Shown: positions 46,097-50,975 of the stretch, one piece after another
How positions within the stretch are numbered: position 1 is the first letter of the stretch
Layout of the letters: the number at the start of each line of letters is the position of its first letter
Virus record (IMG/VR): IMGVR_UViG_3300033141_003168
Location: 32,001-96,000 of that record
From: a virus
Strand: one strand, 5' to 3'
DNA: 64,000 nucleotides
The notes under the pieces: model-generated
The model's database searches: none
Told to the model about the DNA's origin: nothing
The model's input: only the letters and a program-made list of their open reading frames with translations
Translations under genes and position numbers: made by a program

Positions 46097-47056
46097 TTAT
46101 GGAGTGGGAATGACGTTAGCAAATACCCTGCCTCTTCGTATCTCGCTTACCAGCCAGTATTTCAAATTGTATTGTTCTGAGAGTTCTTTTACGATTCCTT
46201 CGTGCCAATCGTTTTTGAGTTTATATTTTATCTTGGCGATTGTTTTTAAACTGGTATTGTGTTTTTCCGCGAGGCGTTTTAATTTTGCTACTTTCTTTTC
46301 AAAAATGCCTTTTTTAATTTTCTTTCTGCGGCGGCTGGAATTAAGTTTAGGAAAATTCAACGGCGCACCGTCTCTATCTGCACATTCGTCGCGCACCAGT
46401 GCTGCGAGTTTTGCCGTGTGATACGATCCCAAATTTTTACCCTTATAAATCGCGATCCATGATGTTCCTTCTCCTGATATACCGACATATTTGTTTTTTG
46501 CTTTTTTGCGTTTTCTTACAGTTCGTTTATCGAGAACAAGTTTTTTGCGAAATTGTTTTTTCTGTTCCGCTGTAAATTCCGGAAAATTTAAACAGGCAAA
46601 CTCGCCATGAAGTTTTCGTGCGGCTTCATCGTAAGCGAAAGCGGCATAATCTGGTTTTGAATAAGAACCAAGATTTTTATTTTTCCCATCGACCGCGATG
46701 ACTGTATGAAAATTTCCGCTACTCATTCTGTGTATTCCTTTGAAATGTCCTTTTCTCCTCGCGGGTTGATTCCATGCGTTTTGTTGTTTTGTGCAGAGGC
46801 GTAAATTTGATCTGCGGTTATCAAACTTATTTCTATTTTTATGATCGGGTATTAAATCGTCAGGCAGTTCGTCTATGTTATTCATTCTAAATAAAATAAT
46901 CTGATGTAAGTAGGTATCTTTTCGTTTTCCGTTTTCCTTACGGTTTCCATGTCTGTAGGCGTAACCCTTGTTACCAACACGCCAGGTGTATTCGGCAAGG
47001 TCGGCGTCTATCTTACTAATAAGGATCGTTTCACCTTTTGCTGTTTTCAATTTCAT
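46097..47056 (-). CDS. HNH endonuclease with AP2 DNA-binding domains
   Basis: 'DHKNRNKFDNRRSNLR' HNH, then two 'LGSY...AA..YD/RD...LNFP' AP2 repeats. Confidence 0.9.
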   Translation of the reverse strand: MKLKTAKGETILISKIDADLAEYTWRVGNKGYAYRHGNRKENGKRKDTYLHQIILFRMNNIDELPDDLIPDHKNRNKFDNRRSNLRLCTKQQNAWNQPARRKGHFKGIHRMSSGNFHTVIAVDGKNKNLGSYSKPDYAAFAYDEAARKLHGEFACLNFPEFTAEQKKQFRKKLVLDKRTVRKRKKAKNKYVGISGEGTSWIAIYKGKNLGSYHTAKLAALVRDECADRDGAPLNFPKLNSSRRRKKIKKGIFEKKVAKLKRLAEKHNTSLKTIAKIKYKLKNDWHEGIVKELSEQYNLKYWLVSEIRRGRVFANVIPTP

Positions 47057-47581: not shown

Positions 47582-48166
47582 TCAAAATAGTTTTTTAATG
47601 CTGTCAGCAACTATTACTATTGCTTCCGCAATATGTTCGGATTTAATAATATCTGAATCGTAAGAACTAAGTGCGAGAACAGTTCTTGCAACAACTTTGA
47701 TATTTTCTACGTGTTGCGGATACAGAGAATAATGTTTTACAGCTTGTTCGAGAAGTTCAAGTGCGGCAGGATCAATCTTACGCGGAACATCGGGCAATCG
47801 TGCTTTTCCTTCTTTGATGCGTTTCTTGATAACTGCAATTGGTTCGGCGAAATTTGTGACTATCTTACTTGCTTCGACCCGCGTCGCCTCGCAGATTATC
47901 GGGTAACGATCTAATTTCTTTTTAATCTTACTGTGTACGTGCATTACTTGAAACGTCGTACATTTACATTCCCTTGTGTAGTCTCCATAATAACCGCAAT
48001 AACAGGGTGCGGTTAAGTAGGTTTGTTTCTTCGTAAGAAATTCCTTTGTATAATTCCTGAGCGTCGGATGAAGTTCGAAAGCGGCGAAGATTAAAATGTT
48101 ATGATCTCCAGTTGCTGCTATTTCAATACACCTCTTTACACTTTCGTTTCCTGGCATTTGTGACAT
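47582..48166 (-). CDS. ComM/YifB (Mg-chelatase-like) homolog lacking the ATPase core
   Basis: 'GNESVKRCIEIAATGDHNILI', 'PCYCGYYGD..ECKC', 'LDR', 'KVART', 'EHIAEA'; no Walker A or B. Start at MSQM after AAGGAG. Confidence 0.75.
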   Translation of the reverse strand: MSQMPGNESVKRCIEIAATGDHNILIFAAFELHPTLRNYTKEFLTKKQTYLTAPCYCGYYGDYTRECKCTTFQVMHVHSKIKKKLDRYPIICEATRVEASKIVTNFAEPIAVIKKRIKEGKARLPDVPRKIDPAALELLEQAVKHYSLYPQHVENIKVVARTVLALSSYDSDIIKSEHIAEAIVIVADSIKKLF

Positions 48167-48194
48167 TGCGTTTTCTCCTTTATTTATTTTCAAT

Positions 48195-48221
48195 AAACTA
48201 ATCCGGTTTCCGTAGTAATAA
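48195..48221. repeat. 27-bp palindromic element, copy 12
   Basis: AAACTAATCCGG-TTT-CCGTAGTAATAA, upstream of the ComM-like gene RBS. Confidence 0.88.
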
Positions 48222-48511
48222 AAATTATTTCCCGAATACTTTTTGTCTGTATTCAACGAGTTCAACCGGATCGGAAATGTGTGTTACAAATCCCGTTGGT
48301 AAATCATTCGACCTTTCACGTAAATCTCCGCGCCTGCGTAAGACCATTTCCTCACCGTTGTCAGTTATCGTCAGCGTAAACGAACCGTCTTTGTTATGTT
48401 TGACGAGTTTGCCTATGACTCGGCGTCCGGTGAAAAAATCTACCTCGACTTCGAACTTGTCTCCGATTGTGTAACTGTAATCATTCATGTGTGTGCTCCC
48501 TTTTTGTTTTA

Positions 48512-50946: not shown

Positions 50947-50975
50947 ATTATAATGCCTCAACTTGAATTTGTAAA
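50947..50975 (-). promoter_or_regulatory. strong sigma70-type (early) promoter
   Basis: Minus strand TTTACA-17 bp-TATAAT with A/T tracts upstream. Confidence 0.75.

What the first reader, a model, noticed from the sequence alone, without database searches (positions are those of the whole stretch)
47582..48166. Minimal ComM/YifB homolog with the ATPase core deleted: possible dominant-negative decoy
Seen: a 194-aa ORF with ComM-like segments in order (G.E.VKR..EIAA.G.HN.L; PCxCGY.GD...CxC; LDR; KVART; HIAEA). It goes from the strand before Walker A to the Zn module in about 25 aa, with no GPPGxGK, no Walker B and no N-terminal Lon-like domain. It keeps an RBS and an open frame in the strongly promoted minus-strand block. 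Established: ComM is a hexameric AAA+ branch-migration helicase for natural transformation, and mobile elements often disrupt comM. Inference: the phage protein may poison host ComM rings to block transformation or recombination-mediated curing.
Basis: partly seen in the sequence, partly recalled or inferred. Interest (0 to 1): 0.72.

Follow-up and report, generated by a model that had tools for sequence, protein, structure and literature searches.

The report
Motor-less phage copy of ComM
A 110-kb phage carries a small, well-conserved gene that is the bacterial DNA-recombination motor ComM stripped of everything that burns ATP or grips DNA; it belongs to a large, undescribed, mostly viral family whose likely job is to bind rather than to act, perhaps as a mimic of the host motor, which remains untested.

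Summary
Window 47585-48166 (-) encodes a 194-aa protein with an RBS. It matches ComM/YifB at both ends and lacks the middle: the family profile aligns to Legionella ComM 189-234 and 339-497 (E 2.5e-33). ComM 1-188 (Lon-like domain, linker) and 235-338 (H2i loop, Walker B, sensor 3, PS1 hairpin) are absent, and the P-loop is degenerate.

It is not a decaying fragment. An exhaustive search found about 115 cluster representatives among the top 150 hits with the same deletion. They form one side of a tree branch against 69 full-length ComMs (support 95). The AlphaFold model is confident (pLDDT 94.9) and overlays ComM (Z 14.5, rmsd 2.5 Å over 175 residues). Nearest ESM Atlas clusters are 65-83% viral. 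I found members in 14 viral contigs (GC 28-65%), always in runs of small ORFs and never with a fixed neighbour.

ATP-site residues are relaxed across the family. The Cys4 zinc knuckle, helix alpha0 and the lid are kept.

Binding or mimicry is my leading reading, with DprA, which docks on ComM's lid, as likely a target as ComM rings. A DNA-associated role unrelated to ComM is a serious rival.

This scan found the same family twice before, in other genomes.

The parts
47585..48166 (-). Coding sequence of the 194-aa mini-ComM (stop codon 47582-47584)
   Evidence: Translation. Pfam PF01078 in two pieces. Family profile against ComM 8rxd, E 2.5e-33. AF2 pLDDT 94.9.
48175..48181 (-). Shine-Dalgarno site (aAGGAG), 8 nt upstream of the ATG
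   Evidence: Read directly from the sequence.
48107..48145 (-). Helix alpha0 (residues 8-20) with the ComM-type motif K11-R12-x-x-E15-I-A..G20; among the most conserved parts in both mini and full-length proteins
   Evidence: Model secondary structure. Column conservation.
48062..48085 (-). Position of the former Walker A loop (residues 28-35, AAFELHPT): degenerate, no GK[ST]
   Evidence: Motif scan and alignment. In full-length proteins the P-loop P is 97% and G is 100% conserved; in minis they are 30% and 40%.
47960..48004 (-). Cys4 zinc knuckle (C55, C57, C67, C69)
   Evidence: All four Cys are invariant in 97 of 97 short relatives and in the full-length set.
47588..47872 (-). Helical lid, equivalent to the Mg_chelatase_C domain (residues 99-193), ending in H178-I-A-E-A182
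   Evidence: PF13335 at E 0.0026, below cut-off here but recorded for most family members. Overlays ComM up to residue 500.
48204..48217 (-). Copy of a dispersed palindrome core (TACTACGGAAACCG) between the upstream gene's stop and this gene's RBS
   Evidence: 14 copies in the window against 0.03 expected.
50947..50975 (-). Near-consensus sigma-70-like promoter at the head of the minus-strand block that contains the gene (a consensus match only)
   Evidence: 11 of 12 hexamer matches.

Best explanation
SHOWN. The gene is intact and conserved. It belongs to a large, single-origin, mainly phage-borne family of 'mini-ComM' proteins. These proteins keep ComM's helix alpha0, three strands of the AAA+ sheet (by my assignment beta5, beta1 and beta4, which are contiguous in the AAA+ strand order), the Cys4 zinc knuckle and the helical lid. 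They have lost the Lon-like N-domain, Walker B, both DNA pore loops and sensor 3. In this phage the P-loop is also gone, so the protein cannot hydrolyse ATP or translocate on DNA.

INFERRED. It therefore works by binding, not catalysis. Three observations point to a near-universal host factor as its partner. What it retains is a subset of ComM's own conserved surfaces. It has no fixed phage partner gene. It occurs in phages of very different hosts. The most likely reading is a structural mimic of ComM that competes for a ComM partner: either DprA, whose winged helix docks on ComM's lid domain, or ComM protomers themselves. That would interfere with host ComM-dependent recombination early in infection. 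The confidence given (0.4) is for this inferred mimic mechanism; the 'shown' part I hold at about 0.95.
For: Identity and architecture:
- split Pfam/TIGRFAM matches.
- the family profile aligns to ComM 189-234 and 339-497, E 2.5e-33.
- pLDDT 94.9, pTM 0.90; alpha0, beta1, alpha1, beta4, knuckle, helix, beta5, lid.
- ComM is the top structural match (Z 14.5, rmsd 2.5 Å, 175 residues aligned, model 1-194 to chain 191-500).
- TM 0.88-0.89 onto full-length YifB/ComM models.

What the deleted segment held in Legionella ComM (PMC11612176): H2i 281-289, E302, R316 and PS1beta 324-336.

A family, not decay:
- 739 hits, most of the top 150 short and aligned end to end.
- alpha0-to-knuckle spacing is 37-58 aa (mode 44), against 145-149 in full-length proteins.
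- all 69 full-length proteins fall on one side of a branch (support 95); the only 'minis' among them are two rows that are not typical minis (270 and 432 aa).
- pN 0.38 against pS 0.84.

Viral setting:
- nearest clusters are 65-83% viral.
- members in 14 viral contigs, GC 28-65%.
- no conserved neighbour; always in runs of small co-directional ORFs.
- no full-length ComM and no DprA in this phage or in five other carrier records.

Constraint pattern: P-loop, sensor 1 and the arginines are relaxed. Alpha0, Cys4, E108, R116, the I163-A164-L166 helix and H178/E181/A182/Y185 are kept. No column is newly conserved in minis.

Partner logic (literature): DprA's winged helix binds the ComM Mg-chelatase-C domain (VcComM L455, R497; PMC12012524). 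ComM is near-universal outside Bacilli and Mollicutes (PMC6158740).
Against: No interaction was tested.

The VcComM R497-equivalent arginine is kept in only 47% of minis. In this protein the C-terminal QYR motif is replaced.

A non-integrating lytic phage has no obvious need to block transformation.

About 40% of family members keep GK[ST], and one clade keeps GKT invariant. The ancestral function may therefore involve nucleotide binding rather than pure mimicry.

Fusions to a SymE/AbrB-like domain and tandem double modules fit a DNA-bound, self-associating protein with its own function.

Conservation of ComM-like residues may only reflect fold maintenance.
Confidence: 0.4

Rival explanations
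1. Ring poison. The mini protein inserts into or caps nascent host ComM hexamers through AAA+ side-by-side contacts and stalls them.
For: It keeps the same relative geometry of sheet remnant and lid as a ComM protomer. This particular protein still has R87 and R161 at the positions of ComM R381 and R463. Natural tandem double-module proteins suggest that mini modules contact each other side by side.
Against: Those arginines are not kept even in its two closest relatives. Family-wide they are kept in 13% and 49% of members. The Lon-like ring domain and the P-loop face are missing. ComM hexamerises only with ATP and DNA (PMC6158740). No interaction was tested.
Confidence: 0.15
2. Autonomous DNA- or nucleic-acid-associated factor. 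The zinc knuckle plus lid module is a binding, oligomerising or (in some clades) nucleotide-sensing unit used by phages for their own early regulation or DNA transactions. It would have no connection to host ComM beyond ancestry.
For: P0027 and P0118 carry a SymE/AbrB-like swapped-hairpin domain in front of the mini module (E 1.2e-8, above cut-off for P0027). P0044 and P0104 are tandem double modules behind a Cys-rich N-terminus. The four Cys are 100% conserved. One clade keeps an invariant GKT. The gene sits among early-type small ORFs.
Against: No column is newly conserved relative to ComM. ComM's known DNA contacts (pore loops, Lon-domain lysines; PMC11612176) are exactly what was deleted. 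One relative (L223) has lost the zinc knuckle yet keeps the rest. There is no match to any PHROG or defence family.
Confidence: 0.3
3. Non-functional remnant of a captured host comM gene that is decaying.
For: Mobile elements often sit in or next to comM (PMC11441513). Public 'phage' records do contain comM pieces.
Against: The frame is intact and has an RBS. About 115 diverged cluster representatives share the same architecture and form one clade. pN is far below the saturated pS. The AF2 model built from mini sequences alone reaches pLDDT 94.9.
Confidence: 0.02
4. Inactive subunit of a phage-encoded AAA+ machine, by analogy with the ATPase-dead delta and delta-prime subunits of clamp loaders.
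For: ATPase-dead AAA+ modules commonly serve as structural subunits of mixed rings (established knowledge). Five family members give weak hits to a clamp-loader PHROG through their P-loops.
Against: There is no full-length ComM-type partner in this complete phage or in five other carrier records. No conserved neighbour gene exists.
Confidence: 0.05

Closest known systems
ComM (Legionella pneumophila, PDB 8RXD/8RXT; Vibrio cholerae ComM) and E. coli YifB (TIGR00368)
   Same: Clear homology at both ends (profile E 2.5e-33). Same alpha0 motif, same embedded Cys4 knuckle, same lid with the H-x-A-E-A motif. The model overlays ComM 191-500 at Z 14.5, rmsd 2.5 Å.
   Different: Lacks the Lon-like N-domain and linker (ComM 1-188). 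Lacks ComM 235-338: H2i, Walker B E302, sensor 3 R316 and the PS1 hairpin. The P-loop is degenerate, and sensor 1 and the arginines are relaxed. It is 194 aa against about 500, and viral rather than chromosomal. It scores 43 bits against the 362-bit family cut-off.
BchI/ChlI magnesium chelatase and MCM helicase AAA+ domains (the AAA+ group that carries H2i and PS1 inserts)
   Same: Same fold class. Next-best structural matches, Z 12-13.
   Different: Those are active motors with complete sheets and pore loops. None is a natural core-deleted form.
ATPase-dead AAA+ modules such as the clamp-loader delta and delta-prime subunits (functional analogy only, from general knowledge)
   Same: An AAA+-derived fold kept for binding after loss of catalysis.
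   Different: Those keep the full alpha/beta domain and act inside a defined heteropentamer. Here two sheet strands and their helices are gone and no partner ATPase is encoded.
Mobile-element interference with ComM: AbaR islands and serine-recombinase elements inserted in comM (PMC11441513)
   Same: Would target the same host pathway if the mimic reading is right.
   Different: Those act by disrupting the gene. This would act through a protein, and that action is not shown.

Membership tests
ComM/YifB (TIGR00368 / NF007365 equivalog) | [quoted passage not shown] | tested here: not met
   The protein starts at the equivalent of ComM residue ~189. PF13541 has no match anywhere in the 110-kb phage.
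ComM/YifB (TIGR00368 / NF007365 equivalog) | Walker A P-loop, GPPGxGK[ST] | tested here: not met
   Residues 28-35 read AAFELHPT, and there is no G....GK[ST] motif. About 40% of other family members do keep GK[ST].
ComM/YifB (TIGR00368 / NF007365 equivalog) | Walker B glutamate, H2i and PS1-beta pore loops, sensor 3 | tested here: not met
   ComM 235-338 has no counterpart. 119 alignment columns present in full-length proteins are gapped in at least 80% of minis. Residue roles are taken from PMC11612176.
ComM/YifB (TIGR00368 / NF007365 equivalog) | Embedded Cys4 zinc knuckle (PCxCG...CxC) | tested here: met
   C55, C57, C67 and C69 are present and invariant in 97 of 97 relatives.
ComM/YifB (TIGR00368 / NF007365 equivalog) | C-terminal Mg_chelatase_C lid domain | tested here: met
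   PF13335 at E 0.0026, 18.7 bits, below the 26-bit cut-off for this protein. It is recorded for most family members. The lid overlays ComM up to residue 500.
ComM/YifB (TIGR00368 / NF007365 equivalog) | Whole-protein score over the curated cut-off | tested here: not met
   TIGR00368: 43 bits against 362.4. NF007365: 13.4 bits against 530.
Viral 'mini-ComM' family (unnamed, uncharacterised) | About 185-235 aa with alpha0-to-knuckle spacing of about 37-58 residues (full-length: 145-149) | tested here: met
   194 aa. The KR-x-x-x-[IV]-A motif at residue 11 to C55 is 44 residues, the family mode.
Viral 'mini-ComM' family (unnamed, uncharacterised) | Falls inside the single clade of short forms | tested here: met
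   FastTree on 194 shared columns places it in a starred 7-row all-mini group. All full-length rows lie across one branch with support 95. This is a FastTree tree only; no AU test was run.
Known anti-phage defence or phage protein families (PADLOC, PHROGs) | Profile match | tested here: not met
   PADLOC gives none for this protein. PHROGs gives only phrog_1651 at E 5e-4, and no shared PHROG for the 85 members scanned.

The most novel reading that the evidence does not exclude
Mini-ComM is a widespread phage-encoded protein mimic of the host recombination motor. By occupying DprA's winged helix and/or ComM protomers it would shut down ComM-dependent branch migration during infection. That would be a protein-level anti-recombination or anti-transformation strategy used by phages of many bacterial phyla, and the first assigned function for ComM's zinc knuckle and lid outside the motor.
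Probability: 0.25. Interest if true: 0.8.

Novelty: new variant of a known kind. Interest (0 to 1): 0.55.

Why it matters
ComM/YifB is near-universal in bacteria. The roles of its zinc knuckle, alpha0 motif and lid are poorly understood.

A natural, highly diversified family that keeps exactly these parts and discards the motor works as an evolutionary dissection. It shows that these parts have an ATP-independent function worth keeping.

If that function is competition for DprA or ComM, phages would have a previously unrecognised way to disable host recombination. The proteins would also be ready-made inhibitors for studying natural transformation.

If instead the module has its own DNA-linked role, it defines a new small phage protein family built from an AAA+ remnant.

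Either way, the family is annotated today only as 'magnesium chelatase family protein' or 'ATPase with chaperone activity'. For this member, which has no P-loop, that label is misleading.

Tried and rejected
Neither self-association nor ComM/DprA docking could be modelled.
- The metagenome contigs and genome-contig scans were flooded by ordinary full-length comM genes, because the search patterns fell on the zinc motif. They gave outgroup sequences but no new minis and no host.
- tblastn of three family members against 50,697 INPHARED phage records found only full-length comM. The two records I opened, both labelled 'UNVERIFIED Bacteriophage sp.', carry bacterial-looking neighbourhoods (comM-dprA-topA in one). 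Other hits were comM pieces at prophage ends. No mini form appeared.
- BFVD structure search found no short look-alike.
- PADLOC gave none for this protein, and only weak P-loop hits for other members.
- Relatives of a virus record cannot be drawn, so the host was not identified.
- No tRNA genes in the window.
- The look-up of sequencing runs: none was listed and no RNA holder was listed.
- dN/dS proper could not be computed because pS is saturated.
- I considered that the gene is the attP-bearing spare copy used by comM-integrating phages. I rejected this for this phage because it has no tyrosine or large serine recombinase.
- The TTG start at 48265 was rejected in favour of ATG 48166.
- Two literature searches found no description of truncated phage ComM proteins. 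That covers only the held library.

Full report
THE GENE

On the minus strand, ATG 48166 to the stop at 47582-47584 encodes 194 aa. AGGAG lies 8 nt upstream of the ATG. Between the upstream gene's stop and this RBS sits one copy of a dispersed palindrome core, which has 14 copies in the window against 0.03 expected. The longer TTG-started frame listed by the ORF finder is therefore unlikely.

The gene lies in a minus-strand block (about 50916-46097) of small ORFs without family matches, plus an HNH endonuclease. One near-consensus promoter-like site heads the block. Promoter-like sites in the region are not more frequent than in shuffles.

The window is part of a complete 110,331-bp virus record with direct terminal repeats. 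It encodes a DNA polymerase, helicase, terminase, portal and a giant head-associated protein. It has no tyrosine integrase or large serine recombinase.

WHAT THE PROTEIN IS

Pfam Mg_chelatase matches in two pieces, profile 2-28 and 156-205 of 207. TIGR00368 (YifB) gives E 2e-11 but only 43 bits against a 362-bit cut-off.

A profile of 85 short relatives aligns to Legionella ComM (8rxd) with E 2.5e-33, again in two pieces: profile 5-50 to ComM 189-234, and profile 52-192 to ComM 339-497. According to the ComM structure paper (PMC11612176), the missing segment 235-338 holds:
- the H2i loop (281-289);
- the Walker B glutamate E302;
- sensor 3, R316;
- the PS1-beta hairpin (324-336).

The missing N-terminus is the Lon-like domain, which also contacts DNA. 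This protein additionally has no P-loop; residues 28-35 read AAFELHPT.

AlphaFold2, run with the short-family alignment, gives pLDDT 94.9 and pTM 0.90. The order of elements is alpha0 (8-20), beta1 (24-27), alpha1 (30-40), beta4 (49-52), knuckle (53-70), helix (71-82), beta5 (90-93), then a helical lid (99-193). In the AAA+ strand order 5-1-4-3-2, the three strands I assign as kept are contiguous (my assignment; established AAA+ topology), so the deletion removes an edge of the sheet rather than its middle.

ComM is the best structural match. Foldseek gives TM 0.68-0.69. VIA-align gives Z 14.5, rmsd 2.5 Å and 175 aligned residues, with model 1-194 on chain 191-500. The ESM Atlas model overlays full-length YifB/ComM models at TM 0.88-0.89.

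NOT A ONE-OFF

An exhaustive HMMER scan of 1.84 billion cluster representatives gave 739 hits at E <= 1e-3. Most of the top 150 are 185-235 aa and align end to end.

Measured from the alpha0 motif to the zinc motif, 115 of them have a spacing of 37-94 residues, nearly all 37-58 with a mode of 44. The 24 full-length hits cluster at 145-149.

I built a FastTree of 115 short and 69 full-length sequences on 194 shared columns, leaving out the deleted columns. All full-length rows fall on one side of a branch with support 95. The only short rows on that side are two that are not typical minis (270 and 432 aa). If the root lies among full-length proteins, this is one origin followed by wide diversification. 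This is a FastTree result with long branches present, and no AU test was run.

Against its nearest phage homologue (46% identity, in L001), pN is 0.38 while pS is 0.84 and saturated.

WHERE THE FAMILY LIVES

The three nearest ESM Atlas clusters (198-216 aa, 94-142 members) are 65-83% viral, Uroviricota.

Pattern scans of IMG/VR recovered members in 14 viral contigs of 18-149 kb, with GC from 28% to 65%. Carrier phages therefore infect very different hosts.

All-against-all BLAST of the neighbouring ORFs found no conserved neighbour beyond close phage pairs. The gene always sits in a run of small co-directional ORFs.

Neither this phage nor five other carrier records, three of them 100% complete, encode a full-length ComM-type protein or DprA.

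The family has no PHROG, no PADLOC match, no short counterpart in BFVD and none in INPHARED. Two full-text searches found no paper on it. JGI labels some members 'magnesium chelatase family protein' or 'predicted ATPase with chaperone activity'.

WHAT SELECTION KEEPS

I compared 113 minis with 69 full-length proteins column by column.

Relaxed in minis:
- the P-loop (P 97% to 30%, G 100% to 40%);
- the sensor 1 asparagine (97% to below 13%);
- the LLDR arginine, ComM R381 (99% to 13%);
- a lid arginine (97% to 19%);
- ComM R463 (96% to 49%);
- the arginine of the QYR motif (90% to 47%).

Kept in minis:
- the alpha0 motif (G, K, R, A, E, A, G, H);
- all four Cys;
- E108 and R116;
- I163, A164 and L166;
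- H178, E181, A182 and Y185.

No column is conserved in minis but not in ComM. About 40% of minis still have GK[ST], and one clade keeps GKT invariant behind a conserved N-terminal helix. This phage's clade has lost the P-loop entirely.

MECHANISM

Shown: the protein lacks every element that ComM uses to hydrolyse ATP and to hold DNA in its pore.

Inferred: it acts by binding.

Published work gives one concrete candidate. The winged-helix domain of DprA binds the Mg-chelatase-C (lid) domain of ComM, and this recruits ComM to the recombination site (VcComM L455 and R497; PMC12012524). The lid is exactly what the mini protein keeps. ComM itself is a monomer that rings up only with ATP and DNA (PMC6158740).

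A stand-alone mimic with no phage partner, present in phages of many phyla, fits a conserved host target such as DprA or ComM.

Several points count against this reading:
- DprA-contact residues are not well kept, and this protein lacks the QYR motif.
- This phage does not integrate, so blocking transformation or 'curing' brings no evident benefit.
- Natural fusions exist in which a SymE/AbrB-like DNA-binding domain precedes the mini module (P0027, P0118).
- Tandem double modules exist (P0044, P0104).

The fusions and double modules suggest self-association and work on DNA. I therefore hold the mimic reading at about 0.4 in total (decoy for DprA or ComM), the specific ring-poison version at 0.15, an autonomous DNA-associated role at 0.3, and decay at 0.02.

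COMPARISON WITH KNOWN FAMILIES, AND NOVELTY

The protein is homologous to ComM/YifB but fails four of the six defining features tested: the Lon-like domain, Walker A, Walker B with the pore loops, and the family score cut-off. It should not be filed as a ComM/YifB equivalog or as an ATPase. It is a member of an unnamed viral family derived from ComM, that is, a new variant of a known kind.

Two earlier follow-ups in this scan (e1-5693002, e1-2301454) reached the same description for members in other genomes. My tests here were made independently on this window.

LIMITS

- The host is unknown.
- The two large-collection scans were swamped by ordinary comM genes.
- No sequencing run was listed.
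- No binding, expression or phenotype has been shown.

Noticed in passing
window 48204-48217, with 13 further copies (e.g. 2233, 7535, 16877, 19196, 47136, 63362): The dispersed palindrome core TACTACGGAAACCG occurs 14 times within one mismatch, against 0.03 expected. One copy sits in the 58-nt gap between the upstream gene's stop and the mini-ComM start codon. Earlier first-reader notes on this genome describe the same element.
   Followed up: partly
window 46097-47056 (-): A 319-aa HNH endonuclease (phrog_99 E 2e-34; Pfam HNH_3) ends the same minus-strand block. A near-consensus promoter-like site lies at 47111-47083, just upstream of it.
   Followed up: partly
proteins P0044 and P0104 (531 and 550 aa, metagenomic): Natural tandem duplications: two mini-ComM modules in one chain behind a Cys-rich N-terminal region. 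This hints that the modules contact each other.
   Followed up: partly
proteins P0027 and P0118 (237 and 256 aa, metagenomic): Mini-ComM modules fused behind a SymE/AbrB-like swapped-hairpin domain. PF08845 scores E 1.2e-8, above cut-off, in P0027. This hints at work on nucleic acid.
   Followed up: partly
L223:6995-7522 (IMGVR_UViG_3300029286_000313): A 175-aa family member has lost the Cys4 zinc knuckle altogether while keeping alpha0 and the lid.
   Followed up: no
alignment A6; L207, L208, L209: A sub-clade of 215-240 aa keeps an invariant GKT and adds a conserved N-terminal helix (L-S-D..L...E..RR). In the provirus record IMGVR_UViG_3300041955_001975 the gene lies about 0.5 kb downstream of two serine-recombinase-like genes at the record's end.
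   Followed up: partly
L020 (MT835528.1) and L101 (MT835774.1), INPHARED: Records deposited as 'UNVERIFIED: Bacteriophage sp.' carry full-length comM in bacterial-looking neighbourhoods. In MT835528.1 it is followed by dprA-like and topA-like genes; in MT835774.1 it sits among housekeeping-type ORFs. They look like bacterial contigs rather than phages.
   Followed up: partly
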